Shown here one piece after another: positions 1 to 26,707 of a stretch of 34,772 nt of DNA. The position numbers were made by a program, and so were the translations under genes. Source of the stretch: a virus; IMG/VR virus record IMGVR_UViG_3300029775_000400; one strand, 5' to 3'. Under the pieces are notes generated by a model, which had not been told where the DNA came from, ran no database searches, and saw only the letters and a list, made by a program, of their open reading frames with translations. Within the stretch, counting starts at the first letter, position 1, and every line of letters starts with the position of its first letter.

Positions 1-786
1 TTATAAAGCTTTTAAGTCGGCCTGTAAGGTTTTCAAGTCAAAACCATCCGGTGATTTACCATTCTTGAGGAATTCTGTGTCGAGTATGGCCCAGGCTTCA
101 TCTACGTATTTGTCCCAGAATTTCCAGGTCATGAACTGGGCTTTACCCCATGTAATGACCCAGAGTCCTTCTTTTGTTACTTTAAGAATTTTAATTGTTC
201 CATATCCTGAAGGGATTACACAGTGCCCGCCTTCTATCTCACTGTTTTTAGTTTGAACATCCCAAATATCGCCGTTCTGGAATTGTTCCATGGCATAGGC
301 CGGAACCATGAAACCTATATCAATTGCACTAAAAAGGTACTGGGCGATTTTAACTTCCTCATGGTCCTTACAGTTTAACTGGACAAAAGCCCCTATTTTA
401 TGCATTACACCATTTTTATCAGGTATCCCAACTTTTCTCCAATACTTCAGGACATCCCTTAGGCTACATCCAACATCTGTTGATTCATCTCCTGGAACGT
501 AGCCAGAAATGGCCTCATAAGTTTTTAATGCGTTATCATCAACAAACTCCGGCTTCTTCCCACCCTGAGTAAGCCAGATCATTAGCATGTGTATAGGTCC
601 GGCAACCGCACAATCTCCAATGCTATTATTGAGGAACATTCCATAATCCACGAAAGCCTCATAATCATTTGTGCTTTCCGGTGGTGTGGGTAGTACGGTT
701 TTATCAATGTATCGGGCTAACTTTAAATCACGTTTATCTTCTTTGAATGGTAATTTACCGAGTTTTAATCCATTATAATCTTTCAT
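1..786 (-). CDS. Papain-like (C1-type) cysteine peptidase, candidate endolysin
   Basis: 261 aa. LNNSIGDCAVAG (catalytic Cys), EGGHCVIPSGY (catalytic His), and ITWG at the NSWG position. GGAGATGA RBS. Located at the end of the tail module. Confidence 0.75.
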   Translation of the reverse strand: MKDYNGLKLGKLPFKEDKRDLKLARYIDKTVLPTPPESTNDYEAFVDYGMFLNNSIGDCAVAGPIHMLMIWLTQGGKKPEFVDDNALKTYEAISGYVPGDESTDVGCSLRDVLKYWRKVGIPDKNGVMHKIGAFVQLNCKDHEEVKIAQYLFSAIDIGFMVPAYAMEQFQNGDIWDVQTKNSEIEGGHCVIPSGYGTIKILKVTKEGLWVITWGKAQFMTWKFWDKYVDEAWAILDTEFLKNGKSPDGFDLKTLQADLKAL

Positions 787-910
787 TAAGTCATCTCCTT
801 AATTTCTGTAAAAAATGCTTAAAAATAAAAAGCAAAACACTTCAAAAAACGCTCATAGCGGTAGCTAACTCACATGTTTAGTTCACCTCAAAAAAGAGAA
901 ATAAGTTAAA

Positions 911-1501
911 TTATCCGTAGTAGGGGACGATGTAAAGGGGCGCGCAGCCTATGGACCAGGCATATAAGTCGCAAATGTTTATGGTGATCTCATTATCCCC
1001 CACCACTAACATTGAAGTAATCTCTACGGGCGGTCCTGACTGGATATAATGGTTGGAGTCATCATAAGATGGGGAATTAAGGGTTCCCTTGGAAGTTGTA
1101 ACCTGAATATAATCATCCGCCCATATCGTATCATTAGGTGTGTTCTGGCATGACTGCATTAAATAAACCCTGGCTTTACCATCCCAGTTAAAGTTGAAGG
1201 TTCCTAAGTTAACTACCTCATATTGATAGTTAACATCTCTAAGGAATCCATCTGTAACTTTTACACAATTTGATGATGTCACTCCACCTTTAACTGCAAT
1301 ATACTCACCAGTTCGTGTTCGTGTTACAAGTACGGTGTCTCCCACATTTATACTTGAATTTCCATGAATTGCAAGGGTACCATCTGGCAGCCGGTGAACC
1401 AGAACCTTATCTCCAATTGAAGGAGCGTTTCCTGGAGGTATGGCAACTTTTTCACCATTCTGGGTGGTGTAGACAATTGAATTATCTCCTTGTGAAGTCA
1501 T
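911..1501 (-). CDS. Putative tail tip / receptor-binding protein
   Basis: 196 aa directly after the hub gene. Two IGDKVLV/VGDTVLV motifs resemble spike OB-fold strands, followed by a beta-rich, aromatic C-terminal domain. Confidence 0.5.
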   Translation of the reverse strand: MTSQGDNSIVYTTQNGEKVAIPPGNAPSIGDKVLVHRLPDGTLAIHGNSSINVGDTVLVTRTRTGEYIAVKGGVTSSNCVKVTDGFLRDVNYQYEVVNLGTFNFNWDGKARVYLMQSCQNTPNDTIWADDYIQVTTSKGTLNSPSYDDSNHYIQSGPPVEITSMLVVGDNEITINICDLYAWSIGCAPLYIVPYYG

Positions 1502-1506
1502 CCTTT

Positions 1507-3840
1507 TTAACCTCCAAGGTTTCGGGCGTTAACTGTTCCAGGTTCGTTCACCGGCTGCACTGTTACACCATTCTTTCCCACATCCGTAACCACGGCAGTA
1601 AACGGTGCATACTCTTTAACTGCGTACTTTGCAATGCTATTTACGGCTTCATAGTCACTTAAAGGGCCAATTATGGAACGATCAGTTGTTGCAACTATCG
1701 TGGTTGTACGGTCTGCAGAATCCCCGTTTAAGGTTATAGCAGTTATGACAAAAGTCATTCCTCGGAGTTTATAATGATCTGGGAAGTAAACGGGTTGGCC
1801 CATTTCACAATCAGGGAATCGGCTTAAAACAATTGTTGCTGTGAAAATAGGTTTGGAATGTAGGTTTAACTCATTTTGTACCTTTGCATTTAAATCTGAT
1901 TGGTTTGTTATTGTTGAGTCTTGTATTGGCTCCCCTGTTTGCACACCGTAACCAGGCCAGATTAAACCAGTGTCTGGGTCTGTCCAACCGTTTATACTGG
2001 CCGTATCCTGAAGATGAGTCGTTATATTATTATTTTCTCCAGCAGTACCGGTCAAATTATTTACAAGGTTTTCACTGTTTTCTTCAACCTCTAAACTTAA
2101 CATCCGTGGATTATCTTTTAAAATACTAATTCCTATGCTCGTGTCTGGAACATCTGTGTAAAAGATTCTAAGAAGGCCCTTTTTATCAATAAACCAGTTA
2201 ACATTTTTACCCAGTACCCTACTAACCAAAGCCAATAAGTCATTTAAGGCAGCTGCTCGTGTATCCCAGTTACCCCCGAAGCCTTTAAAGACATTGTTTT
2301 GGTTTACAATTCCTGTTACTGTTATGTCCACGCAGGGCCCTAGTTCAACGCCCATTCCGTCCAGAATCATGTCCAATAACTGGTAGGAGGTGTAGCTGGT
2401 GGGATTGGATTCTACGCAAGCTAGTGTGAAGGGTTGTGATATGAGTTTGGATCCTGTGTCTCGTCCGGTTATGGTCCAGGTTCTTTCGCTGTCAACATTA
2501 CTGTCTTTTACATCCTGGATAGCACCTGAATAAAATCCGTCTTTATCACCATAACGTTCCTTAAATGTTATACCTTGACCAGTCATTAAGATTAAATCAT
2601 CTGCTGTTAAATAGGACACATCAAATGTGGAGGCAGCATCATTACCCCTCTTTTCAATATTGAAATTCTCCAAACCTGCATATTCCACGCCGTCAACTTC
2701 AAAAACGATGTCATCGTCTGGTTTGGGTGCGCTCATAGGACTATCGCCTAGAACGTTTCCCTGAACCATTATATTTTCAGTGGCTGAAACATATCGAGTT
2801 TCACTCCAGGCGCCCAGGGTTCCAGTGGCTGGTGGGGTTGCTGTTGGAATGACGTTTAGTTCATCAAACATGTCGGGATCGTAAGAAAGGAAACGGATCG
2901 TGGTTCCGGTGGGATAAGTGGAATTAGTGACGTTTAATACTTGGTTGCCGTTGACGTTGACTATAAAACCTGTAGTCGTGGTTGTAATTTGGATGTTATA
3001 CCAAACACCAGGTGAAAAGGTATAATTACGTGAAGCTATGGACGAACTGTTTCCATTGGTGGATAGATATGCTGCTATGTGATCAGAGTAAATCAGGAAT
3101 AAATTCCCATTTTCGTAACCATTACCCCCTGCGTCTGCAGTGATACCGCGTAATAAGATACCTCCCCAGTTGGATCCACTTGTACGTTGTATTCGGAAAG
3201 TATAATTTTTGGGGGAACCATCATCAAGAAAGTGGATTTTTATTCCACCTTTCACACCACTTCCAGATTGAGTGTATGCACCAGGATTTGTCCAAGTTCC
3301 TGCTACAACAGTCCAATCTGAAATATTATCCATTGAATTATAAAATGCAGGAACATTATCTGGATCTGCTGTTGTTGTGGCATTTAAATTCCCACAGTAA
3401 ACTTTTATATTATTTATAGCTGGACTTGCTGACAAATCTGGGATTTTAACGTAGAAATCGGCATGATCACCATCCACACAATCTACAAAACAATAATCCA
3501 ATTTCCTACCATCTAGGGTTGCAAACCTTATATCCTGAAAATCGCTTCGCATGTAACCTGAAACATAAGGAATTGTGATAAAAACAGGGTAATTAATTAA
3601 TTCTCCATCGGTGGACCCGGGTTGTTCATATATGGCTACATGGGGCCATTCAGGATAAATGATTCCTTTGTGGAGGTCAACAGGAGTTACAGTTCCTGGA
3701 GGGTTATTTGCCTGGAAAGGCAGCCATTTTCCCTGTTCAACACGCCTTTTGATTATTCCATTGTCCAGACGGTAAGGCCTGTTTGGGTTTAAACCTGTAG
3801 GGGTTGGCTGGTAGTCAGGTGAAACTCCAACATTTATCAA
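1507..3840 (-). CDS. Baseplate hub (Tal/gp27-like) fused to N-terminal DUF2341-like and ConA/LamG-like domains
   Basis: Likely TTG start at 3840, after GGGGT and just downstream of the previous stop. SDFQDIRF...FYVKIP...VYCGN is DUF2341-like, PGVWYNIQI...VNVNGNQVL is ConA-like, and FYSGAIQDV...WTITGRDTGSKL is hub-like. Confidence 0.65.
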   Translation of the reverse strand: MINVGVSPDYQPTPTGLNPNRPYRLDNGIIKRRVEQGKWLPFQANNPPGTVTPVDLHKGIIYPEWPHVAIYEQPGSTDGELINYPVFITIPYVSGYMRSDFQDIRFATLDGRKLDYCFVDCVDGDHADFYVKIPDLSASPAINNIKVYCGNLNATTTADPDNVPAFYNSMDNISDWTVVAGTWTNPGAYTQSGSGVKGGIKIHFLDDGSPKNYTFRIQRTSGSNWGGILLRGITADAGGNGYENGNLFLIYSDHIAAYLSTNGNSSSIASRNYTFSPGVWYNIQITTTTTGFIVNVNGNQVLNVTNSTYPTGTTIRFLSYDPDMFDELNVIPTATPPATGTLGAWSETRYVSATENIMVQGNVLGDSPMSAPKPDDDIVFEVDGVEYAGLENFNIEKRGNDAASTFDVSYLTADDLILMTGQGITFKERYGDKDGFYSGAIQDVKDSNVDSERTWTITGRDTGSKLISQPFTLACVESNPTSYTSYQLLDMILDGMGVELGPCVDITVTGIVNQNNVFKGFGGNWDTRAAALNDLLALVSRVLGKNVNWFIDKKGLLRIFYTDVPDTSIGISILKDNPRMLSLEVEENSENLVNNLTGTAGENNNITTHLQDTASINGWTDPDTGLIWPGYGVQTGEPIQDSTITNQSDLNAKVQNELNLHSKPIFTATIVLSRFPDCEMGQPVYFPDHYKLRGMTFVITAITLNGDSADRTTTIVATTDRSIIGPLSDYEAVNSIAKYAVKEYAPFTAVVTDVGKNGVTVQPVNEPGTVNARNLGG

Positions 3841-3854
3841 TTTAAAACCCCCAT

Positions 3855-4682
3855 TTATCCCATTACTGTTCTTAACATAGCCATTTCTGTTGCACAAGCC
3901 GATGTTCCACCACTTAAAGCCAGGAAACCAAGACAACCACAGTTACTACCACTATCAACAGGTAACTGTGTGAATCCATCCCATTCGATAATAGAGTTTG
4001 CGTTTACGGTTGGTATCATGGCCAATGGTTTATATAAGAATAGATCAATACTTCCTGTTCCTGTAGCGCTTATATTCACATTTGTTATACTTGAAACACC
4101 ACTATCTCCAGCAGCTAAAGGCAAACATGGAGTTGCAAGTGGCATCATTTTAGGAGCTGCCAAAGACGCTGCAAACGCCCCTGTATTGGTACTATGGCCT
4201 GTTCCCTGATCTGAACTAGCAGGATTATAAGTAACTGTAACCGTTGGTGTTACACTCGAAAGAGCTGTATTCACTGCACAACCTATCTGAACGCCTTTCC
4301 CATCTATATAACGTGTAAGTGAAGGCATTGTGATCGCTCCAGGACTTGAAGCTATGGAATAATTGGCAAGCCAGAGCACATCAATTAAAAGAAGTGCTGC
4401 AATCCCCGCATTTGAGGGAACTGAAACTCCACATTTAAGGAGGTATTTATCGTTTGAACCTGGGCTTGTAAGTGGTATTGCTCCTGCGTCGGTTTCATTC
4501 ATAATACCTCCATTGTTTCCTGCTGTTCCAACCATTGGGCCGGGGCTTCCTGCACTTCGTAAAAGGGATAACCAGTTTCCAGCTGCGGCGGGTGTTATGT
4601 TTGTATTTTTTATATATATTGGGTCGTCTGCTCCACCGTTTGCTCTTGCGTTTATTATTCCATCATAATTCGTTATCGATAT
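3855..4682 (-). CDS. Virion/tail protein, 275 aa, apparently starting at ATA
   Basis: The ORF-track frame (start 4535) stays open to 4682: ISITNYDGIINARANGGADDPIYIKNTNITPAAAGNWLSLLRSAGSPGP. GGGGAGTG RBS-like element upstream of the ATA. Confidence 0.7.
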   Translation of the reverse strand: MSITNYDGIINARANGGADDPIYIKNTNITPAAAGNWLSLLRSAGSPGPMVGTAGNNGGIMNETDAGAIPLTSPGSNDKYLLKCGVSVPSNAGIAALLLIDVLWLANYSIASSPGAITMPSLTRYIDGKGVQIGCAVNTALSSVTPTVTVTYNPASSDQGTGHSTNTGAFAASLAAPKMMPLATPCLPLAAGDSGVSSITNVNISATGTGSIDLFLYKPLAMIPTVNANSIIEWDGFTQLPVDSGSNCGCLGFLALSGGTSACATEMAMLRTVMG

Positions 4683-4683
4683 T

Positions 4684-5280
4684 TTAACACTCCCCTATTG
4701 CTTTTTTAGTTAAATCATGGATTAAAGAAGCAGTAATTGGATCTTGATAATATCCTAATGATTTCCAATTCCGGTTAAAAGAAATCCTACATTGCCAAGG
4801 TCTTCCTTCAGGATTCCCTCTTTTATCAAAGGTTGCTCCAGGATGTTTACCATATTTGGCTTTACTCATTTTTTCAATAGTTTTTTTAGGGTGTCTTCGT
4901 CCCCACATGGAATTATTTCCCCCTTTATGTGATTTACTCATTTTTTTTCGAGTTTCTTCTGAAAAACGGCCATGAGATCCGCCTTCTCTTATATTATAAC
5001 CCCATTTATCCACACTTGAATTATAATATATTATATAAAATTTTTCAAGAAGATTTAAATGGTTTTGATTTGTTATTTTTTGTTCTATGACTTTCCATGA
5101 AAAGTTTTCTTTTCCATATTTTTTTATAGCCATTTCTATTGCAGAATTAGGATGGGGCTTAGAATGGTGTTCATTTTTACGTTGTGGCCATTTTTGGATT
5201 GTTTGACCTACATAACATTTTCCATTTATCTTATTTTTGACTACATAGATCAACCCATTTACCTCGGTATTATTCGCCAT
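4684..5280 (-). CDS. Free-standing GIY-YIG homing endonuclease with NUMOD3-like repeats and AP2-like C-terminus
   Basis: GLIYVVKNKINGKCYVGQT; SEETRKKMSKSHKG and KKTIEKMSKAKYG; WQCRISFNRNWKSLGYY. Visibly more AT-rich than its flanks. Confidence 0.88.
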   Translation of the reverse strand: MANNTEVNGLIYVVKNKINGKCYVGQTIQKWPQRKNEHHSKPHPNSAIEMAIKKYGKENFSWKVIEQKITNQNHLNLLEKFYIIYYNSSVDKWGYNIREGGSHGRFSEETRKKMSKSHKGGNNSMWGRRHPKKTIEKMSKAKYGKHPGATFDKRGNPEGRPWQCRISFNRNWKSLGYYQDPITASLIHDLTKKAIGEC

Positions 5281-5712: not shown

Positions 5713-7049
5713 TATTCATACACCACCTTAACCTGTTTCAAATAACAACCACTGTTTAACGCAGCAGAGTTTACGCCATCCACAGGCGCCAGGTGCTGAC
5801 TGGTTAAAAAGCTTAAAATCATGGATGGTGGAGAAATGGTAAAGGTTAAAGTTTCTAGGCCATCCTCCCCAGTGTCATCTGTGTTGTGGTCGTGGCTGTA
5901 ATGCCAGCTTTGAGTATTTCCGTTTACGGTGAGCGTGGCGGGTAGGTTGCAGGCGTTTCCTTGAACTTCAACCTGTTTAACTGCTCTGTCCTCGGTTATT
6001 GTCATGATTCCGATTTCACGGCCTGCAGCATTAGGATCAGAACTCATATCCTGGTCCTTTGGAACATATGTGATGATTACTTGAATGTAATCCACCCAAA
6101 CCTCTTTATATTTATCCAGGGTGGCAGAGTAGCTCACGGTGAAATTTGGATCATTGTATGCTGAAGGGTCTGTTGAGAAATAAGGGAGCGACCCATCTAA
6201 ACTATCAAGAACTATGGTCTGCATATTGGAAGGGTCGGTTCCCTGGGCGTAATCTTTAATGGCCTCATCCACTGGGGAATACATGCCCGCCCCAGCAATA
6301 GTTATGTAGTGCTTTGCAATGTTGAAATAGGGACTTCTAATCTTACTATTATTTGCATAACAGATTTTAACTTGAACACGACTCACAACCATGTCAGTTG
6401 GAATATTAAATCCGAAGTTGCTTGCTATTAACTGCTTAGAACCACCAACACTACCTGAATCATTTGTTGCGTGGGCCGTGTAACCATCCGCACCCTCAAT
6501 GAGGCCTTGGTTGACCCACCCCCACGTCGCATTTGGTATAGAGTTATCTGAAACGGTCCCAGGGAAAGCACTAACCGTTCCACCAGTCTGAGCCGGAACA
6601 TCCTTAGTCCAACACTGATAATCAATATTCCTATACAATCTGTAATCTGGACTGTAAATCGCATAAGCCGGGAGATTCACCAACTGCAACTCAAAAATAA
6701 GATCCCACTGAATCAACTGATCCGCAAATTCAGTCTCAATAAACTGAGGATAGTAAAGGGCGCCCTGCCAGGAGTTATTCCCCTCTGTTATCGTGACGAT
6801 CTGGCCGTCACGTGAAACCTGAAGATCCGTCCCACCATTCATGAGTGGTTTATTGTTGATAACATCTGCAGCAATGGCCCTGAATGCTTCTATCTCATCC
6901 CTCGCATCAGCATAAAAATCATCAGGATAAGCCGCACAATGCAAAGTCACCTTGGGAAATTCAGTCCAATCAACACCGCTGGCACTATCATCCCCACCAG
7001 TTATCCACCTTGGAGTTATCCCATTTATAGTCCAATCACCATAACCCAT
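5712..7049 (-). CDS. Distal-tail (Dit-like) protein with inserted jelly-roll domain
   Basis: First gene after the TMP. The central WVNQGLIEGADG...SNFGFNIPTDMVVSRVQVKI...VWVDYIQVIITY segment resembles carbohydrate-binding-like inserts. Confidence 0.55.
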   Translation of the reverse strand: MGYGDWTINGITPRWITGGDDSASGVDWTEFPKVTLHCAAYPDDFYADARDEIEAFRAIAADVINNKPLMNGGTDLQVSRDGQIVTITEGNNSWQGALYYPQFIETEFADQLIQWDLIFELQLVNLPAYAIYSPDYRLYRNIDYQCWTKDVPAQTGGTVSAFPGTVSDNSIPNATWGWVNQGLIEGADGYTAHATNDSGSVGGSKQLIASNFGFNIPTDMVVSRVQVKICYANNSKIRSPYFNIAKHYITIAGAGMYSPVDEAIKDYAQGTDPSNMQTIVLDSLDGSLPYFSTDPSAYNDPNFTVSYSATLDKYKEVWVDYIQVIITYVPKDQDMSSDPNAAGREIGIMTITEDRAVKQVEVQGNACNLPATLTVNGNTQSWHYSHDHNTDDTGEDGLETLTFTISPPSMILSFLTSQHLAPVDGVNSAALNSGCYLKQVKVVYE

Positions 7050-7055
7050 CACACA

Positions 7056-10000
7056 TCACCTCCTTAAAATCACAGTTGGCTTCAAACCGTTAGTTACAGC
7101 GCCTTTCTGCAGGCTTGAGGATATACTATTACCTAAAAGGTTCCCACCCTGATTCACAACATTCTTATCAGCATTACCGTTTACCTGAACCGCTCCATCC
7201 TGTACGGTTAAATAAATAACTGTTTGACCCACCTGTGAACTGTTAATGGCTTTTGTAAGGCCTGGGTTTGAGAGGTTTGAAAGTCTTGGGAGCTGCACCA
7301 TCTCATCCATATAACCTGTGAATCGTGATAAACCTGCAACTCCACCCTGGGCCAGACTTGCAGCCCAAGACTTCATGTTCTCTGCCTTAATGGTTGCTAA
7401 TGGTCCCTCTTTTGGTGGGGAATGTGGAAACATGTTGGAAATCCTGGTAAAAACAGAACTTAAATTAGGTAAACCCGCCGTGATACCACCAGACAGGTTA
7501 TTTATCATGGATAAACCAGTACTCCACAAGTGAGAAGAGGTTGACTGCATACTGGCCAGGAAACTAGAGGTTTTACTAGTTATTGATTCCAGGTTCACAT
7601 CCAAACCGCCAAAACCAGAAGATAAACCACTGCTAAGGCCATTTATGAGTTGATTACCCCAGTTCGCCCAGTTTCCAGCAGAAACATTGCTTAAAGGGCC
7701 GGTTTTAGGTGGACTGTGGGTTTCAGTCATTCCCTGAATAACACTCAAAGCTGACCTTAAACCCGGAATACCATTTAAAATTCCTTCCTCCAAACCATGG
7801 ACTATCTGGCCACCATAATTTTCCATTTTACCAGGAAGGGTTCCAAGCCACTGCATGAATTTATTCCATTCATTCTGGACCCATTGAACGGCTTCATGTT
7901 CTCCTTTCTCAATATCAGACCATTTAGGGATTGGAACCTTTGGAACGTGGCTTTCAACATAAGTTTTAAGAGCATTCCACTCATTCTGAACCCACTGTTT
8001 AGCAGGGTCCAAACCCTTTTCAACATCGGCCCAGGTAGGGACCTTCACCTTAGGAGTGTGCTGTGTAACATACTGCTGCAAACCACCCCACTTGGTTTGA
8101 ACCGTATTCTTAGCAGTATCTAAACCTTGATGAATTGTAGTCCAATTCAATTTCGTATTTGGGGCATGACTGGATACGTATTGTTTTAACTGGCCCCATT
8201 TTCCTTGAACTGTGCTTTTAGCGCCGTCTAATCCTTGGTGGATTGTACTCCAGTTCACTTTTGGAAGTTTAGAAGTTACATTACTACTTACATACTGCTG
8301 CAATTGGCCTAACTTAGTCTGCACCGTAGTTTTGGCACCATCCAAACCAGAAGTAAGACCAGACCAACTAATTTTAGGCATCTTATAACTTGATTCTAAA
8401 CTCACACCATGGCCTTTCAACCAACCAGGTAAGTTCAACTGATCTGCAAGTGAACCCGGTATGTTCTTGTTTCCTGCATTGCCTAAATCTGTTTTTAGAT
8501 GGTTAATTGGATCCCAATCTGGGGCGGATGGTGTATTAAACCCTAAAACGGCCCCCATAGACATAGAACCATTAGAAACTAAGGAACCAAGATTCCCAAG
8601 ACCTCCAAGACTTGCAGAACCTAAGTCAATTCCCTGCCCTTTCAACCAACCGGGGAGGTTTAATTGATCTGCCAAGGATCCGGGAACGTTTTTGTTCCCT
8701 GCATTTCCTATGTCTTTTTTCATCTGGTTTATTGGATCCCAATCTATGAGGGGCTGGTTATTTTCAAGGTTCCATAGTGGGTTTCCAGGAAGATCCATAC
8801 CTAAAAATACGCCTGCATCTGCAGCTCCCATGTTCAGCATGTCAAAAAGGGTGGTTCCTAGGCTGTAACCTACGGCTTTTCCACTTCCTACCTTAGCTGA
8901 TGTATATAAACCGTTAAGGAGGGTATCTACAATTTCACCGCCACCAGGTAATTTTCCTAGGGTGCCTTTTATTCCTCCTTTGATCTTGTCAAATATTGAT
9001 TCACCAGATCCTGTTGAAGATGAACCACCAGTTCCAGACCAATCTGGCTCATAGGTGCCTTCACTGTTTTTTGTCATTTCAATAGTTTTGGGTTCTTCAG
9101 TTCCACTTCCTACTGTTGGGGTTGTTCCTGTGGTTGTTCCGCTGCCAAAGATCCTGGTGTAAACGTTTGAACCATCTAAATCCCCTACTTTTAGTTTAAG
9201 ATTATCAATAATACCACTTATCTTGCTGTAAGCAGTGTCCCCCTCACCTGTGTCCTTAAATATTCTATCATAGACATCGTACCCGTTAAGTTCGTTTATC
9301 TTTGCCTTTGCATCATCAACAAAACCGGATACTTTCCCTTCTGCAGCTGTGACGGTTCCCTTTTCATCACCAAAGATTTTACTCCAAACATCTGAATCTT
9401 TCAGTTCACCAAGTTTGGCCTTGGTATCACTGATAAAACTAGAAATCCTGGAAGATAGATCGCTTAAACTTGTGTTTACACGGCCTTCCTCATCATCTAG
9501 GAAACTCTTTGTATCTCCATAGTAGTGCTCGTAGCCATCGTCTAATATTCCAGTTATCTTTTCTTTTGTACTTTCCACTTTACTGGTTAGTTTAGTCAGT
9601 GTTTCGGAAGATGAACTTTCTATCTTATTATTGTCTCCGTAATAGTGTTCGTAGCCTTCATCAAGTATTTCGTTTACTTTATTTTTTGTACTCTCAAATT
9701 TCTCAGTTATCTTGTCCAATGTTTCCGAGTTAGAGTCAACCGCTTTGTTATTGTCGCCGTAGTAATGTTCGTAACCATCATCAAGTACTCCAGTTATCTT
9801 GTCCTTTGCAGATGAAACCTTACTTACCAGGTCATCCCAACTAACTCCTTGGATACGGCCTTCTTCATCATCAAGGAATGATCCAGTTTTACCGTAGTAA
9901 TGATCGTAACCCTCATCAAGTATTTCACCTATTTTATCCTTAGTACTCTCAAATTTACCAGTTATCTTATCTAATATCTCAGAATTAGATTCTACGGCCT

Positions 10001-12818
10001 TACCATTATTCCCATAGTAATGTTCATAGCCCTCATCGAGAATTTTGCCTATCTTATCTTTTGTATCCTCAAATTTACTAGTTATTTTGTCCAAGGTTTC
10101 AGAGTTAGATTCAATAGTTTTACTGTTGTTACCATAATAGTGTTCATAACCCTCATCAAGGATTTTAGTTATCTTGTTTTTGGTATCCTCAACCTTATTA
10201 ACTAACTCATCAAGGTTAAACCCTCGAATACGGCCTTCCTCATCATCAAGGAATGATCCAGTTTTACCGTAGTAATGATCGTAACCCTCATCAAGTATTT
10301 CACCTATTTTATCCTTAGTACTCTCAACTTTCTCGGTGATCTTGTCCAGGGTTTCAGAAGATGATTCTACGGTCTTATCATTATTCCCATAGTAATGTTC
10401 ATAGCCCTCATCAAGGATTTCACTTATCCTATTTTTTGCAGATGAAACCTTATTCACAAGATCATCAAGATTAAAACCCCTAATTGCACCCTCTTCATCA
10501 TCTAAGAAGGATCCCGTTTTACCGTAATAGTGTTCATAGCCCTTGTCTAATATTTCACCGATCTTGTCTTTTGCACCCTCAACATCCTCAGTTATCTTGT
10601 CCAATGTTTCAGAAGAAGTGTTCTCTACATTATTCGAGGTGCCATAATAATATTCATAGCCTTCATCCAGAAATCCATCCACTTTGTTAATAGACTCTTT
10701 AACTTTCCCAGTTACTTTATCTAAATTTTCAGAAGACTCAGAAGCTGACTCAGAACCACCGTAATAATGCTCATAACCTTCATCAAGTCCGGTTGATATG
10801 GCACCTTTTAATTCAGCCAATTTGGACTTTGTATTATCAACAAAGGAACCTATCCTAGCTTCAGCCTGATCAAGAATACTGAAATTCAAACTACCTTTCT
10901 CATCACCAAAAAGCATCTTCCAAACATTAGACTCTTTCAACTCACCCAATTTAGTTTTAGTTTTCTCAACAAAACTATTAACATCACCTTCAGCCTTCAA
11001 TTCGCCAGCTTCATCTGAAACAATCTCAAACTTAGTTTGAACAGTCTCTTTTACGGTTTTATCACCAAAGACTTTTTCATCCCATTCTTCAAGAGGATTT
11101 TTAATATCCCCAGTGCCTTTAAGCTCCTGGATTTTACTTATTAAACCTTGAACAGCATCTTTGATCTCAAGTAGTCCACCCCCTACCTTCTTAACAATAG
11201 GGATTGCTACTGCTAAACCTCCAACGATTAAACTAATTTTCCCGATAAGTTCATAATCCCAATCAGGTAAAGGAAAATTTATAATTTTATTCCATAATTT
11301 CTGTACTTCAGATCCAAGAGTTATTGTTTGGGCATTTGTTTGGCTCATTGCATCTGTTGTTTTGTTTGCAGAGTCTGTTGTGGCCTGTCCTGCATCCTGT
11401 GCACTTTCTTTAAGAAGGCCAAAGGTTAATGCTCCTCTACTTCCAAACAAATCTATTAAAGCTTCATTTTTACTTATTCCATAAGCTGCCTGAAATTGTG
11501 CATCCGTCATTGTAGAAGTTTTTTGAGTAACTTCATCCATAATGTCTGCAACGCTTCTAAAACTGCCATCTGCATTTTTGGCGTCAATATGCATTGCATC
11601 CAAGGCCACTTTTGCATTGGATTTTTCATAAGAAGTGGAGGTAAGCTGTTTTTGTAGGGATTTAGCACCAATGGTAAGAGCGCTTACAGCGGAACTTGCG
11701 CTTACTCCTACCTGGTCGAATGCACTTATATAATTTGTAATTTCTTCTGCATTGAACCCTACTGATTTTAAGGTTCTAAGTGACCCTGTCAATGCATTTA
11801 AGGCTTCTGTAGGAGTAGAAACTTTTAAATTCAAAAAAGCTTCATTTAAATAAGAAGTTACATCTGCAGCGTCTTGGCCGTGTAATCCATAAGTTGCTAT
11901 GATTGAACTAAGATCATACATTGCAGTATCTGTATCAATAGCTCCAGTTTTGATTAATTTAAAAGCAGCTGGTAATTCTGCAGCAACATCATCCGCATTT
12001 TTTAAACCCTTTGCTAAGATGTAAAAACCCTCTGATGATTCTTCAGTTGGCATGTAAGGAGCTAACTGAGCTAATGATGATCTTAATGCATTAACATTGG
12101 ATGTGGTAACTGGTACTCCTTCATAGTACAATGCTTTTTCTAAGGATCTTTCAGTTCCCATCCTTTTTGCTTCAACATCAACAGCAGCAATGGCTGATGT
12201 AATCCCAGTAATGGCTGCGGCAGCATTTGAACTTGAAGAAGCCGATTCATCTATACTGTCAGAATCTACTTCAGGAGTTACAGTTGTATCGTTCAGATCT
12301 TCAAGGTCTTCTCTTAGTTCATCAGCTTTTTCTAACGCGTCCCCCTGAAGATCTGCCTCTGGAGTGGCAACTTCACCATCTAGCTCGGTCATATCCTCTT
12401 TGAGGGTTTCCACGTTTTCTAACGCGTCTCCCCCTAAATTTGCTTCAGGGTTGGCTGTTTCACTATCTAAATCAGTCATGTCTGATTTGAGAGTTTCAAC
12501 ATCTTCCTGTGCATCTCCCTCAAGGTTTGCCTCAGGGTTTATTATTTCATTATCAATGCTCGTTAAGTCAGATTGAAGGGTTTCAACACTTTCTTGTGCA
12601 TTCCCTTCTAAATTTGCTTCAGGGTTGGACTCTTCATCATTTAAACGTGTTAAACTGTCAATTAAACTATTTACTTGGTCTAAGGCATCACCGGTTAAGT
12701 TTATATCAATATCTTGGGACTGTGGAAGGTCTACAAGTTGGTCGGCGATCTCGGTCAACCCATCTGTGATGTCATCAACATTCATTTCTGTGGTTATACC
12801 AAGGGTTTTATCTCCCAT
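7056..12818 (-). CDS. Tape measure protein (about 1920 aa)
   Basis: Longest ORF, downstream of the tail tube and chaperone genes. TP901-like core (KVALDAMHIDAKNADGSFRSVADIMDEV), Trp-spaced repeats, and twin HSPPKxGPL motifs. Start placed at MGDKT after GGAGTTG. Confidence 0.92.
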   Translation of the reverse strand: MGDKTLGITTEMNVDDITDGLTEIADQLVDLPQSQDIDINLTGDALDQVNSLIDSLTRLNDEESNPEANLEGNAQESVETLQSDLTSIDNEIINPEANLEGDAQEDVETLKSDMTDLDSETANPEANLGGDALENVETLKEDMTELDGEVATPEADLQGDALEKADELREDLEDLNDTTVTPEVDSDSIDESASSSSNAAAAITGITSAIAAVDVEAKRMGTERSLEKALYYEGVPVTTSNVNALRSSLAQLAPYMPTEESSEGFYILAKGLKNADDVAAELPAAFKLIKTGAIDTDTAMYDLSSIIATYGLHGQDAADVTSYLNEAFLNLKVSTPTEALNALTGSLRTLKSVGFNAEEITNYISAFDQVGVSASSAVSALTIGAKSLQKQLTSTSYEKSNAKVALDAMHIDAKNADGSFRSVADIMDEVTQKTSTMTDAQFQAAYGISKNEALIDLFGSRGALTFGLLKESAQDAGQATTDSANKTTDAMSQTNAQTITLGSEVQKLWNKIINFPLPDWDYELIGKISLIVGGLAVAIPIVKKVGGGLLEIKDAVQGLISKIQELKGTGDIKNPLEEWDEKVFGDKTVKETVQTKFEIVSDEAGELKAEGDVNSFVEKTKTKLGELKESNVWKMLFGDEKGSLNFSILDQAEARIGSFVDNTKSKLAELKGAISTGLDEGYEHYYGGSESASESSENLDKVTGKVKESINKVDGFLDEGYEYYYGTSNNVENTSSETLDKITEDVEGAKDKIGEILDKGYEHYYGKTGSFLDDEEGAIRGFNLDDLVNKVSSAKNRISEILDEGYEHYYGNNDKTVESSSETLDKITEKVESTKDKIGEILDEGYDHYYGKTGSFLDDEEGRIRGFNLDELVNKVEDTKNKITKILDEGYEHYYGNNSKTIESNSETLDKITSKFEDTKDKIGKILDEGYEHYYGNNGKAVESNSEILDKITGKFESTKDKIGEILDEGYDHYYGKTGSFLDDEEGRIQGVSWDDLVSKVSSAKDKITGVLDDGYEHYYGDNNKAVDSNSETLDKITEKFESTKNKVNEILDEGYEHYYGDNNKIESSSSETLTKLTSKVESTKEKITGILDDGYEHYYGDTKSFLDDEEGRVNTSLSDLSSRISSFISDTKAKLGELKDSDVWSKIFGDEKGTVTAAEGKVSGFVDDAKAKINELNGYDVYDRIFKDTGEGDTAYSKISGIIDNLKLKVGDLDGSNVYTRIFGSGTTTGTTPTVGSGTEEPKTIEMTKNSEGTYEPDWSGTGGSSSTGSGESIFDKIKGGIKGTLGKLPGGGEIVDTLLNGLYTSAKVGSGKAVGYSLGTTLFDMLNMGAADAGVFLGMDLPGNPLWNLENNQPLIDWDPINQMKKDIGNAGNKNVPGSLADQLNLPGWLKGQGIDLGSASLGGLGNLGSLVSNGSMSMGAVLGFNTPSAPDWDPINHLKTDLGNAGNKNIPGSLADQLNLPGWLKGHGVSLESSYKMPKISWSGLTSGLDGAKTTVQTKLGQLQQYVSSNVTSKLPKVNWSTIHQGLDGAKSTVQGKWGQLKQYVSSHAPNTKLNWTTIHQGLDTAKNTVQTKWGGLQQYVTQHTPKVKVPTWADVEKGLDPAKQWVQNEWNALKTYVESHVPKVPIPKWSDIEKGEHEAVQWVQNEWNKFMQWLGTLPGKMENYGGQIVHGLEEGILNGIPGLRSALSVIQGMTETHSPPKTGPLSNVSAGNWANWGNQLINGLSSGLSSGFGGLDVNLESITSKTSSFLASMQSTSSHLWSTGLSMINNLSGGITAGLPNLSSVFTRISNMFPHSPPKEGPLATIKAENMKSWAASLAQGGVAGLSRFTGYMDEMVQLPRLSNLSNPGLTKAINSSQVGQTVIYLTVQDGAVQVNGNADKNVVNQGGNLLGNSISSSLQKGAVTNGLKPTVILRR
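7840..8370 (-). repeat. Five Trp-containing repeats of about 36-39 aa in the TMP
   Basis: Units such as WSTIHQGLDGAKSTVQGKWGQLKQYV, WTTIHQGLDTAKNTVQTKWGGLQQYV and WADVEKGLDPAKQWVQNEWNALKTYV. Confidence 0.85.
8400..8745 (-). repeat. Duplicated block of about 42 aa in the TMP
   Basis: DWDPINQMKKDIGNAGNKNVPGSLADQLNLPGWLKGQG versus DWDPINHLKTDLGNAGNKNIPGSLADQLNLPGWLKGHG. Confidence 0.9.
9480..10790 (-). repeat. 11-copy LD[ED K]GY[ED][HY]YYG tandem array of 40-aa and 45-aa units in the TMP
   Basis: Read directly from the translation. DNA copies 9853-9952 and 10228-10327 are identical except for one position. Confidence 0.95.
12265..12715 (-). repeat. 29-aa acidic repeats (about 5 copies) at the TMP N-terminus
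   Basis: NPEANLEGNAQESVETLQSDLTSIDNEII, NPEANLEGDAQEDVETLKSDMTDLDSETA, NPEANLGGDALENVETLKEDMTELDGEVA, plus more degenerate copies. Confidence 0.9.
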
Positions 12819-12907
12819 TTCTTTCAACTCCATTGGGCTTTGATGAAAAAAAGTAAATAATAGAAATCATGAGAAAAAATAATAACTAAAAAGAGAGGAT
12901 CTTAAAA

Positions 12908-18919: not shown

Positions 18920-19810
18920 TTATGCTGCATCGTATAGGTTTCTTAACTGCATAATGGCGTCGGTGTGGAATATGTCCTGGGCCTGGTAGGTTTCAGTGTT
19001 GTAGTAGATCATATTGTCCTTGTCGGGCATTCCCTGCTGGACTGGGAAGGTGTTTATATCCCATTCCACGTTTCTTTCTGCAACATCTGTTCCAAAGTAT
19101 TCAAGAAGTCCACAACCTGTAGCTAAACCTGTTGTCTGGTATATGTCGTTTACCCCGTTCTTGAACTGAGGAATCCTAGCAATGAAATCTAGGTAAGTGC
19201 TGCCTGTATTTGGTACCCTTCTAAGTAATTGTCCATAACTTAGAGGATCTAAGGCCAGTTTCATTGAAAGTCCTGTGTAAAGCTGTGTGCTTGCGAGCAT
19301 TCCCACGGCCTCAACAATTGTGTCATCTGGGGCGTTTGTGGTTCCGGCCTGGTTCCAAGCTTTACCATCATCTAATACAAGTGGGGTGGCGCTGGCGTCT
19401 TTGTACAAACCTTTTACGTTCCTATTGGCATCACCATTAAAGATGACATCATCCAAACTTTCACTCACAATCCTTCCAGACTGTCTGGCATCTTCACCGT
19501 TAAGAGCTGTAACTCCCATCCTTTGGTAAGCGTCAAGGGTCTGTTTGTGGAACTTAAAACCGTAAGTGTGTTCTATAACCTTAACGGTCCTAGGTTCTCC
19601 TTCCGAACTTTCCCTTGGCACTTCCCTAATCTTGTAACCTCTCTTTGCTTTACCTGTGAAGTTCTGAATGCTGTTCCTGGTTAAGGTTCCAACACCTGGA
19701 GGTATGTCTTCACCCCGGGCAATAAGGTTTGGTCCAACTAACGGGGCTTTGTAGGCTCTTATAACTTCTGCGCTAAAGTAATCTGTTATTTTTTGTGGTA
19801 GAAATCCCAT
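18920..19810 (-). CDS. Major capsid protein, HK97 fold (encapsulin/DUF2184-like)
   Basis: 296 aa after the decoration gene; IVSESLDDVIFNGDANRNVKGL motif. Confidence 0.85.
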   Translation of the reverse strand: MGFLPQKITDYFSAEVIRAYKAPLVGPNLIARGEDIPPGVGTLTRNSIQNFTGKAKRGYKIREVPRESSEGEPRTVKVIEHTYGFKFHKQTLDAYQRMGVTALNGEDARQSGRIVSESLDDVIFNGDANRNVKGLYKDASATPLVLDDGKAWNQAGTTNAPDDTIVEAVGMLASTQLYTGLSMKLALDPLSYGQLLRRVPNTGSTYLDFIARIPQFKNGVNDIYQTTGLATGCGLLEYFGTDVAERNVEWDINTFPVQQGMPDKDNMIYYNTETYQAQDIFHTDAIMQLRNLYDAA

Positions 19811-23531: not shown

Positions 23532-23645
23532 TCATTTTTTCAGGTCCATTTCGACTAATTTCTTAAACCGTTTAGCCTTATCATTATATTGGGGTTTGTG
23601 CTTCGTTCTGGTCTTTTTCTCTTTGAAGCGTGGATGTTCATACAA
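23532..23645 (-). CDS. Small Lys-rich protein, 37 aa
   Basis: GGAGGTG 6 nt before TTG; MYEHPRFKEKKTRTKHKPQYNDKAKRFKKLVEMDLKK. An alternative 28-aa ATG frame overlapping the portal stop also exists. Confidence 0.5.
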   Translation of the reverse strand: MYEHPRFKEKKTRTKHKPQYNDKAKRFKKLVEMDLKK

Positions 23646-25062
23646 CGCTCACACCTCCAGTGAGTTTTTTAATTAATCCATAGTCCCTAAGTGCATCTTT
23701 TACAATGTTGAGCTGTACTTTCTCACCACTTGCAGCTGCAGGTTGGGGGCTTGGCATTGGTTGAAGATCTTTCCATTCATCCCCTCCAAGGTCAACAGCG
23801 GCGGGTAAGTTTATCATGTCACGGACCTCTGGTCGGCTTATGGCACCGGTAGGCCATACTGCAGCAATAATTTGAGCAGCTTCTAGAAGATTCTTAGATA
23901 AAAATGGATTGTACTGTACTTCAAGGCGTCCCTCTGTGATGTCGTTCTGATTTAAAACTTCTTGGGCTGTGTTCTGGATTATCGGAGTGTAAATTGAGTT
24001 ACGCACACCATTTTCTTGTTTGGCTATGAACACATCTGTTAAGGCTTCCAGGGTTGCTCTGTTCACAACTTGACTCTGTGCATAAGCTAGTAATGTTAAA
24101 GGTACACCGAACTTAAACGCAATACTTTCTAGGGTTTGCTGTTCAAGTTCAACCATCTTAACCTCTTTACCCGCAAAACTGGACTGTTCAATATCCATCC
24201 AATCAAAACCAGCACTTGTACCACCACGATCAACTACTTTTTGGTAGTAGGTAGCGGAGTCATTAAGGTATTTTTTGGCTTCCTCTGCAGAGGATAAGAT
24301 TTTATCCTTCATGGGGCCTTCTCCCATGTCTTTTGTGTTTATTTTGATGGTCTGCAGTACCTGACTGTAAATATTACCCAATTTGGACCTGTATCTTGGG
24401 AAATGGGTTAAGGTTCTAAGGTCTGTTAAGGCCCTTTGTATGGCAGAGTGGCCGTATACAGATTTTTTGGATAGGTTGTTTTGAGTCCTGTAGATCACCC
24501 GGTCTTGGGTGAATGATGGTCCACTGACTCCGTCGATTGGTTTTTGTTGGTATTGAACGGTTCCGGTTTGGTCTTTCATCACGGCCCTTACGCTGTCCAT
24601 GGTTATGTTCATGGGGTTTATGCAGTCTGCACCGGTAACACCTGCAAATTTGTTACTGTAGAATTCTCCCATGCCGTTATATGTCTTGATTATGACGGAT
24701 CGGGCCAGTACTCGGAAGTATGTTGCAAACATCATCATGGTTGTATAAAAGTCCATTTCCACGAATTTTTCATCTACAACACGTTTGGCTTCTTTTCCAT
24801 CCTCCTCATCTTCAAATCCCACGGGTTTCAGGTTCCAACCCACACCCAGGTCAATGTAGTTTTGTAGGTCAATGAATGGCTGTGCGCCTCCACGGGTGTA
24901 ATGTAAGAGTAATTCCCATTCATCCGCAGCGGGCATATCCAGCATCTGGAGAATATTCCAGAATTGGAACATTGGATCCATCCTTTGAACCATTTCAAGG
25001 ACTTGATCTGAGTAATCGTTTCCTATGATAGGTGGATTATCACTTACTGCCATCTTTTTCAT
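23638..25062 (-). CDS. Portal protein
   Basis: 474 aa after TerL; SVYGHSAIQRAL, IAFKFGVPLTLL, GAISRPEVRDMINLP. Confidence 0.88.
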   Translation of the reverse strand: MKKMAVSDNPPIIGNDYSDQVLEMVQRMDPMFQFWNILQMLDMPAADEWELLLHYTRGGAQPFIDLQNYIDLGVGWNLKPVGFEDEEDGKEAKRVVDEKFVEMDFYTTMMMFATYFRVLARSVIIKTYNGMGEFYSNKFAGVTGADCINPMNITMDSVRAVMKDQTGTVQYQQKPIDGVSGPSFTQDRVIYRTQNNLSKKSVYGHSAIQRALTDLRTLTHFPRYRSKLGNIYSQVLQTIKINTKDMGEGPMKDKILSSAEEAKKYLNDSATYYQKVVDRGGTSAGFDWMDIEQSSFAGKEVKMVELEQQTLESIAFKFGVPLTLLAYAQSQVVNRATLEALTDVFIAKQENGVRNSIYTPIIQNTAQEVLNQNDITEGRLEVQYNPFLSKNLLEAAQIIAAVWPTGAISRPEVRDMINLPAAVDLGGDEWKDLQPMPSPQPAAASGEKVQLNIVKDALRDYGLIKKLTGGVSVV

Positions 25063-26568: not shown

Positions 26569-26707
26569 GAAAAAAACAACCTCACAATATAAAGAGTAAT
26601 ACTCAAAAATTAGAAATACACGTGTAAACATTTCCAGCTAAGGCCTGAGAAGGCTTCATTCACATGATTAGTAATACTTTTTTCCAGTTCACAATAACCC
26701 CTTATAA

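What the first reader, a model, noticed from the sequence alone, without database searches (positions are those of the whole stretch)
1..786. Papain-like peptidase in the lysis position: candidate new type of pseudomurein endolysin
Seen: C1-type Cys (IGDC) and His (GGHC) motifs, TWG in place of NSWG, no signal peptide, no pseudomurein-binding repeats, and a position at the end of the tail module. Established: characterised methanogen-virus endolysins are PeiW/PeiP (C71, with PMB repeats) and PeiR (C39), all cysteine peptidases. No other endolysin is visible in the window. Inference: this is a different papain-fold lineage used for cell-wall lysis, or a virion-maturation protease.
Basis: partly seen in the sequence, partly recalled or inferred. 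Interest (0 to 1): 0.7.

Follow-up and report, generated by a model that had tools for sequence, protein, structure and literature searches.

The report
Papain-fold peptidase partnering the Pei endolysin
The gene does encode a papain-fold cysteine peptidase in the lysis region of a Methanobacterium virus, but it is not the missing endolysin: a Pei-type endolysin gene lies 172 bases beyond the window edge, and this peptidase is its conserved partner from a large, mostly phage-borne family often fused to or next to cell-wall hydrolases.

Summary
Observation confirmed. Window 1-786 (- strand) is a complete 261-aa ORF with IGDC (C59), GGHC (H188) and TWG (W213), and no signal peptide, TM segment or PMB repeats. 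The AF2 model (pLDDT 93.5) matches xylellain and cathepsins.

Interpretation partly supported. A metagenome contig 100% identical to the window end continues past position 1. It encodes, 172 nt downstream, a PG_binding_1 + transglutaminase-core/C71-like (Pei-like) protein.

- **Related proviruses:** the same C1-like gene is followed directly by a C71 Pei in one and by a PeiR homolog (PDB 8z4h, E 7e-38) in a M. paludis-like genome. The partner stays while the Pei type is swapped.
- **Family size:** about 7,000 50%-identity clusters, mostly viral (phrog_19005, unknown function).
- **Neighbours:** in bacterial phage contigs, recognisable neighbours are chiefly lysozymes, amidases and PG-binding proteins; 10 of 11 local lysin hits lie within two genes (p 1e-6).
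- **Natural fusions:** GH25-like, GH24, CHAP, and one C71 Pei + C1-like protein.

Best reading (about 0.6): a second lytic peptidase working alongside Pei, acquired from bacterial phage lysis cassettes. The substrate bond is unknown. No earlier scan note on other DNA reported this. Interest is moderate.

The parts
1..786 (-). Complete gene for a 261-aa xylellain-type (C1-like) papain-fold cysteine peptidase; stop codon at 1-3
   Evidence: ORF; phrog_19005 E 3.5e-35; AF2 pLDDT 93.5; Foldseek top hit 3ois xylellain at 1e-12, followed by cathepsins B/K/L/S
610..612 (-). Codon of the catalytic Cys59 (IGDC), at the N-terminus of helix 59-74
   Evidence: Invariant in 99 homologs; aligned to the IGSC cysteine of xylellain; helix start in the model
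628..630 (-). Codon of Asn53, six residues before the Cys, in the position of papain's oxyanion-hole Gln19
   Evidence: Invariant in 99 homologs; the positional equivalence to Gln19 is inferred from the spacing and from the xylellain alignment
223..225 (-). Codon of the catalytic His188 (GGHC)
   Evidence: Invariant; EGGHCV aligns with EGGHAV of xylellain; lies in strand 184-200 of the model
148..150 (-). Codon of Trp213 (TWG), equivalent to papain Trp177. The Asn175 position is Ile/Val in this family
   Evidence: Invariant W; read from the alignment columns
787..910 (-). 124-nt spacer between the last tail-module gene and the peptidase gene. It holds oligo-T runs, an A/T-rich TATA-like stretch and an AAGGAG ribosome-binding site, and is read as the start of a separate late/lysis transcription unit
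   Evidence: Sequence read directly from the alignment; the promoter/terminator role is inference only
911..1501 (-). 196-aa protein of unknown function, the last gene of the tail module. A homolog (38% identity) sits in the same module of the M. paludis-like provirus
   Evidence: (no Pfam family)

Best explanation
The ORF encodes an active, cytoplasmically made, xylellain-type papain-fold cysteine peptidase (nucleophile C59, general base H188, Asn53 in the oxyanion-hole position). It is the first gene of a two-gene lysis cassette in a temperate tailed virus of Methanobacterium. The second gene lies 172 nt downstream, just outside the window, and is a Pei-type endolysin (PG_binding_1 + transglutaminase-core/C71-like). 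I read the C1-like protein as a second lytic enzyme. After the still unknown membrane-permeabilising step it reaches the pseudomurein sacculus together with Pei. There it cuts a peptide bond of the stem or cross-link, or of wall-bound protein, that Pei does not cut, which speeds or completes wall breakdown. The cassette type was acquired from bacterial phages, where the same family pairs with, or is fused to, muramidases, amidases and CHAP domains. Shown: fold, conserved catalytic residues, gene pairing, fusions, distribution. Inferred: wall substrate, synergy with Pei, timing.
For: Fold and active site. Pei-like gene next door in an identical contig. The same pairing appears in relatives with different Pei types: L003 has PG_binding_1 + Peptidase_C71 at 4.4e-10, 4 nt downstream; the M. 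paludis-like provirus has a PeiR homolog at E 6.7e-38 to PDB 8z4h, 10 nt downstream; L138 and L139 have Pei-like or PG_binding_1 genes nearby. Fusions of the family domain: P0234 carries a C71 Pei domain (8z4f, 1.4e-6) plus the C1-like domain at 42% identity to the window protein, full length on 3 contigs. P0256 is GH24 lysozyme + C1-like. P0133 is CHAP + C1-like. P0134, P0144, P0148 and P0203 are Rv2525c/GH25-like + C1-like. Neighbourhoods: in the Manatee Spring phage the homolog overlaps the end of an N-acetylmuramoyl-L-alanine amidase gene. In about 78 IMG/VR loci the commonest recognisable families within two genes are SLT, GH25, Rv2525c-like, GH108/PG_binding_3, PG_binding_1, Amidase_2, phage lysozyme and holins. 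With a small local lysin library, 10 of 11 hits lie within two genes of the C1-like gene (Fisher p 1.3e-6). Among the structural neighbours listed by the ESM Atlas are Peptidase_C1 clusters that also carry Muramidase, GH19 or PG_binding_1 (leads only).
Against: No biochemical data exist for any member (phrog_19005 is 'unknown function'). Characterised C1 peptidases cut ordinary alpha-peptide bonds in proteins, not gamma- or epsilon-isopeptide or D-amino-acid bonds (my knowledge). One family at 35-45% identity serves hosts with murein and with pseudomurein, which argues against a strict wall-peptide specificity. Some members sit in cellular, non-lysis contexts: the Bryobacterales synteny with Cpn10 and methylmalonyl-CoA mutase, and L010 among transporter genes. 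Only a minority of viral loci have a recognisable lysin neighbour, although most neighbours have no annotation at all. The third catalytic residue could not be identified. PeiW and PeiP lyse cells on their own (PMC4592898), so a second enzyme is not strictly required.
Confidence: 0.6

Rival explanations
1. It is a protease that acts on proteins, not on the wall polymer, during late infection. Possible targets are wall-anchored or envelope proteins, or a lysis component that it processes or activates (the endolysin, or an unknown holin or antiholin).
For: The C1 fold and its closest structural relatives (xylellain, cathepsins) are protein endopeptidases. The family works across chemically different walls. 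The conserved N-terminal 45 residues resemble the short N-terminal extension of xylellain and the model aligns best to zymogen forms, which hints at regulated activity. How Pei crosses the archaeal membrane is unknown (PMC10791045).
Against: Repeated covalent fusion to muramidase, GH25-like, CHAP and Pei catalytic domains is the architecture of multi-domain wall hydrolases, not of regulators. No conserved candidate protein substrate gene accompanies it.
Confidence: 0.2
2. It is a virion-associated (tail-tip) wall hydrolase used for entry, or a virion-maturation protease.
For: The gene lies directly after the tail module. The Tal-like protein upstream has only a weak Prophage_tail hit.
Against: It is separated from the tail genes by a 124-nt spacer with T-runs and its own ribosome-binding site. 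It is far from the head module, where a maturation protease would lie. Homologs pair or fuse with soluble endolysin-type domains, not with tail structural domains. It is tightly coupled to Pei in relatives.
Confidence: 0.08
3. It is the virus's sole, new-type pseudomurein endolysin that replaces Pei.
For: No other lysin is found inside the window. It is a cysteine peptidase, like all known Pei enzymes.
Against: A Pei-like gene lies 172 nt downstream in a contig 100% identical over 1,712 bp. Relatives carry C71 or PeiR genes immediately downstream.
Confidence: 0.05
4. It is a cargo (moron) or housekeeping-type peptidase with no role in lysis, and sits here by chance.
For: Cellular homologs occur in conserved non-viral synteny in Bryobacterales and in a Methanobacteriaceae MAG.
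Against: Strong positional association with lysis genes (p 1.3e-6). The pairing is conserved across three proviruses that have swapped the Pei type. The nearest clusters are 70-90% viral.
Confidence: 0.05

Closest known systems
Xylellain (Xylella fastidiosa short C1A cysteine peptidase, PDB 3ois)
   Same: Best structural match (Foldseek E 1e-12, TM about 0.68) and the only PDB sequence match. Same size class (about 260-290 aa), no classical I29 propeptide, a short N-terminal extension, and shared local motifs (IGxC; TKN..EGGHxV). 'Xylellain-type' short C1A peptidases have been reported as horizontally acquired by Myoviridae and Siphoviridae and by methanogens (PMC10380794).
   Different: Only about 17% identity, and no Pfam Peptidase_C1 hit. 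The oxyanion Gln is replaced by an invariant Asn, and the Asn of the N-S-W-G motif by Ile/Val. Xylellain is a cellular enzyme with no lysis-cassette context that I know of (my knowledge).
PeiW / PeiP (Peptidase_C71) and PeiR (Peptidase_C39): the characterised pseudomurein endoisopeptidases of methanogen viruses
   Same: Cysteine peptidases of the wider papain-like clan, encoded in the lysis region of Methanobacteriales viruses and made without a signal peptide. The C1-like gene is their immediate neighbour, and in one lineage it is fused to a C71 domain.
   Different: Different fold family: C1-type L+R domains, against a transglutaminase-like core or C39. No Pfam or PDB sequence match to them. 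No PMB or PG_binding repeats. No activity data.
Multi-domain or split bacteriophage endolysins with a cysteine-peptidase catalytic domain plus a glycosidase or amidase (for example CHAP + amidase in LysK; peptidase + GH25/GH19/amidase in mycobacteriophage LysA)
   Same: Same logic: a peptidase activity is combined with a second wall-cleaving activity, either in one chain (P0134, P0256, P0133, P0234) or as adjacent genes (window virus; MW202816; Actinomadura prophages with GH25/Rv2525c-like genes upstream).
   Different: The peptidase module here is C1-like, which I do not recall among the standard catalogued endolysin catalytic domains such as CHAP, NlpC/P60, C39-like, M15 and M23 (my knowledge). 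In the methanogen viruses both partners are peptidases.
phrog_19005 (PHROGs family, unknown function)
   Same: The window protein matches it over nearly its full length (E 3.5e-35, residues 45-260 against profile positions 39-254 of 260).
   Different: The family carries no functional annotation. The link to lysis proposed here is new relative to that entry.

Membership tests
Papain family, MEROPS C1 / Pfam PF00112 | Papain fold (helical L domain plus beta-barrel R domain) | tested here: met
   AF2 model pLDDT 93.5. All top Foldseek PDB hits are C1 peptidases: xylellain, cathepsins B/K/L/S, Der p 1, falcipain, Cwp84.
Papain family, MEROPS C1 / Pfam PF00112 | Catalytic Cys at the N-terminus of the central helix, and catalytic His on a beta-strand | tested here: met
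   C59 starts helix 59-74 and H188 lies in strand 184-200. Both are invariant in 99 homologs and align to the Cys and His motifs of xylellain.
Papain family, MEROPS C1 / Pfam PF00112 | Oxyanion-hole Gln six residues before the Cys | tested here: not met
   The position holds an invariant Asn (N53) instead of Gln. It is chemically similar, so probably functional (inference).
Papain family, MEROPS C1 / Pfam PF00112 | Third triad residue Asn in the N-S-W-G motif | tested here: not met
   The motif is (I/V)-(T/S)-W-G. The Trp is invariant, but the Asn position is hydrophobic. An alternative third residue could not be located because no model coordinates were available to me.
Papain family, MEROPS C1 / Pfam PF00112 | Significant match to the family's sequence profile | tested here: not met
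   No Pfam family even at E <= 10 and no NCBIfam model. The only links are a weak phmmer hit to 3ois (E 0.074) and 20% of one ESM Atlas neighbour cluster carrying PF00112. NCBI nevertheless names the M. paludis homolog 'C1 family peptidase'.
Pseudomurein endoisopeptidase Pei (C71: PeiW/PeiP) | Transglutaminase-like core with a C-H-D triad, usually with PMB or other wall-binding repeats | tested here: not met
   No PF12386, PF01841 or PF09373 hit for the target and a different fold. The neighbouring gene L043:1885-2517 does meet it: Transglut_core 2.6e-22, C71 3.4e-4 (20.9 bits, below the 22-bit cut-off), PG_binding_1 2e-15, and PDB PeiW 8jx4 at E 0.007.
PeiR-type endoisopeptidase (C39) | C39 fold and sequence similarity to PeiR | tested here: not met
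   No match for the target. In the M. paludis-like provirus the gene downstream of the C1-like homolog matches PeiR (8z4h, E 6.7e-38).
Phage/virus endolysin (functional class) | Encoded in the lysis cassette next to other lysis genes | tested here: met
   Pei-like gene 172 nt downstream. Tight coupling in relatives. Enrichment of lysin neighbours in viral contigs.
Phage/virus endolysin (functional class) | Catalytic domain that occurs in wall-hydrolase architectures | tested here: met
   Fusions with GH24, GH25-like, CHAP and C71 domains.
Phage/virus endolysin (functional class) | Demonstrated degradation of the host wall | not testable with these tools
   Needs enzyme assays on pseudomurein or murein sacculi.

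The most novel reading that the evidence does not exclude
The C1-like protein is a true second pseudomurein hydrolase with a bond specificity different from the Ala-epsilon-Lys cut of Pei. On this reading it came from a previously unrecognised C1-type catalytic module of bacteriophage endolysins, was transferred into Methanobacterium viruses, and was retooled from murein to pseudomurein. Methanogen-virus lysis would then normally use a two-peptidase cassette.
Probability: 0.35. Interest if true: 0.65.

Novelty: new variant of a known kind. Interest (0 to 1): 0.48.

Why it matters
Only three pseudomurein-degrading enzymes are characterised (PeiW, PeiP, PeiR). They are the main tools for lysing Methanobacteriales and are candidate anti-methanogen agents.

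A conserved second peptidase that travels with whichever Pei type a virus carries, and is fused to Pei in one lineage, is a concrete candidate for a new wall-cleaving activity or a synergist. It can be tested with existing assays.

More broadly, the family has about 7,000 clusters at 50% identity, is mostly viral, and is annotated 'unknown function'. It appears to be an overlooked C1-type module of phage lysis systems.

The apparent lack of an endolysin was caused by the window edge.

Tried and rejected
- **Whole-genome search for Pei genes:** no genome is held for this window.
- **Single-protein scan and exact-pattern scan of IMG/VR:** both found nothing. The metagenome pattern scan then found L043.
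- **Megablast of 20 kb against known phages:** no match, so this is not Drs3. TerL is only 30% identical to Drs3.
- **Diverse alignment A1:** too divergent for the genome scan. The closer alignment A3 worked.
- **BLAST clustering of neighbours:** gave only tiny clusters, so I used Pfam tallies on pseudo-alignments instead. These give counts but not per-locus mapping. One Peptidase_C71 neighbour in the IMG/VR set could not be traced to its locus.
- **PDB searches of a Bryobacterales neighbour and the Komagataeibacter phage downstream gene:** uninformative.
- **tRNA or att site near the integrase in L043:** none found.
- **Literature:** no paper in the held library links this family to lysis. 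Medvedeva et al.'s compendium of methanogen viruses did not appear among the results of my searches, so I did not read it.
- **Virion-maturation protease:** rejected on gene position and on partners.

Full report
**1. What is at 1-786**

The - strand carries a complete 261-aa ORF with an ATG start. Its stop codon occupies window bases 1-3, so the window ends exactly at the end of the gene. The protein has no hydrophobic N-terminus or TM segment (highest 19-residue hydropathy mean 1.25), and Pfam finds nothing, so there are no PMB repeats.

The surrounding genes are the late module of a tailed virus, all on the - strand:
- TerL, 25081-26631
- portal, 23641-25062
- HK97-type MCP, 18923-19810
- tape measure protein, 7059-12833
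- Dit-like protein, 5715-7052
- a GIY-YIG homing endonuclease, 4687-5280
- a Tal-like protein with DUF2341, 1510-3936
- a 196-aa protein of unknown function, 914-1501

TerL is closest to Methanobacterium virus Drs3, at 30% identity. The closest homolog of the target is a Methanobacterium paludis protein (73%) that NCBI names 'C1 family peptidase'.

**2. Fold and active site**

Sequence profiles barely see the family. Pfam and NCBIfam give no hit. PHROGs gives phrog_19005, function unknown, at E 3.5e-35. Against the PDB there is only a weak hit to xylellain (3ois), but it aligns IGDC to IGSC and EGGHCV to EGGHAV.

An AF2 model built on 99 homologs is confident (pLDDT 93.5, pTM 0.90). Foldseek returns xylellain first (E 1e-12), then cathepsins B/K/L/S, Der p 1, falcipain and Cwp84. 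The viral structure library returns phage 'Peptidase_C1' proteins, some also labelled peptidoglycan-binding or muramidase.

Across 99 homologs N53, G57, C59, H66, G106, H188 and W213 are invariant. C59 starts helix 59-74 and H188 lies in a strand. Two features differ from papain: Asn53 replaces the oxyanion Gln, and the Asn of N-S-W-G is Ile/Val. The protein is therefore a divergent, probably active, xylellain-type member of the papain fold.

**3. The missing endolysin lies just past the window edge**

An exact 39-nt pattern from the window end retrieved a fermentation-metagenome contig, L043. It is 100% identical to window 1-1712 and continues for 12.6 kb beyond window position 1.

172 nt downstream of the C1-like gene it encodes a 210-aa protein. 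That protein has PG_binding_1 (2e-15) and a transglutaminase core (2.6e-22). It also hits Peptidase_C71 at 3.4e-4 (20.9 bits), just under the 22-bit cut-off. By sequence it hits PeiW (8jx4, E 0.007) and a pseudomurein endoisopeptidase (8z4f, E 0.06) in the PDB. Next come a TauE/SafE-type membrane protein on the opposite strand, an integrase, and early-type genes.

**4. The pairing is conserved while the Pei type is swapped**

- In a Methanobacteriaceae MAG (L003, C1-like 60% identical) the next gene, 4 nt downstream, is PG_binding_1 + Peptidase_C71 (4.4e-10).
- In the M. paludis-like genome (L137, 73-77% identical) the next gene, 10 nt downstream, is a clear PeiR homolog (PDB 8z4h, E 6.7e-38). 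A DNA methylase and then host genes follow. The same provirus shares the upstream tail genes with the window.
- Two further Methanobacteriaceae loci have a Pei-like catalytic domain or a PG_binding_1 protein nearby.
- The family was found in 6 of the 300 Methanobacteriaceae species genomes searched.

Non-orthologous replacement of the Pei partner, with the C1-like gene retained, argues that the two are not redundant.

**5. The family at large**

A profile search finds 7,038 clusters at 50% identity with E <= 1e-3, and 3,513 with E <= 1e-30. At least 302 IMG/VR contigs encode a member. The nearest ESM Atlas clusters are 70-90% viral.

Genome hits are mostly bacterial: Actinomycetota, Acidobacteriota, Alphaproteobacteria, Planctomycetota, Saccharibacteria and Melainabacteria. 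Komagataeibacter phages and a Manatee Spring myovirus also carry it.

In a quick maximum-likelihood tree the window, M. paludis and L003 proteins form one clade (SH-aLRT support 99). It is nested in a supported clade made mostly of high-GC viral contigs, with GC of 50-68% in most. Methanobacteriaceae members occur in at least two separate places. This fits published statements that xylellain-type short C1A peptidases were acquired horizontally by Caudoviricetes and by methanogens (PMC10380794). The direction from bacterial phage to archaeal virus is inferred from the nesting, on an unrooted tree.

**6. Evidence that the family belongs to lysis systems**

Neighbourhood:
- In the Manatee Spring phage the homolog overlaps the end of an N-acetylmuramoyl-L-alanine amidase gene, at the end of the baseplate module.
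- Among the two genes on each side in about 78 IMG/VR loci, the commonest recognisable Pfam families are wall hydrolases or wall-binding domains. These are SLT, GH25, Rv2525c-like, GH108/PG_binding_3, PG_binding_1, Amidase_2, phage lysozymes, LysM, one C71 and one holin family.
- In genome loci the neighbours include GH25/Rv2525c-like genes and another holin family.
- With a small local library of lysin domains, 10 of 11 hits in 79 loci fall within two genes of the C1-like gene, against 1 in about 1,150 more distant ORFs (Fisher p 1.3e-6).
- The window clade's nearest relatives (L056, L080, L090) have PG_binding_1 proteins nearby; in L080 and L090 these are GH25 muramidases.

Fusions:
- About a third of the top 150 representatives carry extra regions of 80 aa or more.
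- Those I could identify are Rv2525c/GH25-like (P0134, P0144, P0148, P0203), GH24 lysozyme (P0256, E 1.6e-18) and a CHAP-type phage hydrolase (P0133).
- P0234 (656 aa, seen at full length on three contigs) joins PeiR-like N-terminal repeats, a C71 Pei domain (8z4f, 1.4e-6) and a C1-like domain 42% identical to the window protein over its whole length.
- That last protein is the fused counterpart of the gene pair in this virus.

**7. Mechanism proposed, and its limits**

Shown: an intact Cys/His papain-fold enzyme; no export signal; a position at the head of a two-gene cassette with Pei; family-wide linkage and fusion to wall hydrolases.

Inferred: it is made late and reaches the wall with Pei after membrane permeabilisation. 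How Pei crosses the archaeal membrane is itself unknown (PMC10791045). Once there, it cleaves a peptide bond in pseudomurein, or in wall-bound protein, that Pei does not cleave.

Points against:
- No member has been assayed.
- C1 enzymes normally cut ordinary peptide bonds (my knowledge).
- The same family serves murein and pseudomurein hosts.
- Some members sit in cellular contexts: the Bryobacterales synteny with Cpn10 and methylmalonyl-CoA mutase, and L010 with a C-terminal Ig-like domain among transporter genes.
- PeiW and PeiP lyse cells alone (PMC4592898).

The main rival is therefore a lysis-associated protease with a protein substrate (0.2). A tail-associated entry lysin or maturation protease (0.08), a sole new endolysin (0.05) and an unrelated cargo gene (0.05) are less likely.

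**8. Comparison and novelty**

The closest characterised protein is xylellain: same fold and size class, about 17% identity, and a cellular enzyme. The target is not a member of C71 or C39. For C1 it meets the fold and the Cys/His criteria, but it fails the Pfam profile and two canonical active-site positions. I therefore file it as a divergent xylellain-type C1-like family, not as a canonical C1A member.

Functionally it resembles the peptidase half of split or multi-domain phage endolysins. I found no paper in the held library that assigns this family to lysis or notes the Pei + C1-like pairing. Some key papers on methanogen viruses did not turn up in my searches, so prior description cannot be excluded.

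Verdict: a new variant of a known kind, of moderate interest (0.48).

No whole genome is held for the window.

Noticed in passing
L043:2537-3343 (- strand; outside the window, about 20 nt beyond the Pei-like gene): A 268-aa TauE/SafE-type multi-pass membrane protein lies convergent to the lysis genes, between them and the integrase. It could be a cargo gene or a membrane component relevant to lysis. No holin has been identified for methanogen viruses.
   Followed up: no
L003:10806-11441; L043:1885-2517; L137:8875-9657: Three related Methanobacteriaceae proviruses keep the C1-like gene but carry three different endolysin types directly downstream: PG_binding_1 + C71, PG_binding_1 + transglutaminase-core, and a PeiR/C39 homolog. 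PG_binding_1, a murein-binding domain in bacteria, replaces the usual PMB repeats in two of them.
   Followed up: partly
P0234 (656 aa; three metagenome contigs, longest 49,960 bp): A natural three-part protein: PeiR-like N-terminal repeats, a C71 Pei domain and the C1-like domain. It is the fused form of the gene pair seen in the window's virus.
   Followed up: partly
L018, L019, L021, L023 (Bryobacterales genomes): Family members sit in a conserved chromosomal neighbourhood between Cpn10 and methylmalonyl-CoA mutase genes, next to an unannotated protein of about 180-280 aa. This suggests a domesticated or cellular branch of the family.
   Followed up: partly
window 4687-5280 (- strand): A GIY-YIG + NUMOD3 homing-endonuclease gene is inserted in the tail module between the Dit-like and Tal-like genes.
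   Followed up: no
L016 (5-kb contig binned to a Nitrososphaerales MAG): A family member is assigned to an archaeon without murein or pseudomurein. The contig is short, so the binning may be wrong. If it is right, it argues against a strict wall-polymer substrate.
   Followed up: no
L010:9995-11134 and L138:5103-6356 (Methanobacteriaceae genomes): Longer homologs carry a Pro/Thr linker and a C-terminal Ig-like (Big_3_5) domain and have no signal peptide. L010 lies among transporter genes, and L138 lies 1.3 kb from a divergently oriented Pei-like gene. In L138 the region around the catalytic Cys is diverged.
   Followed up: partly
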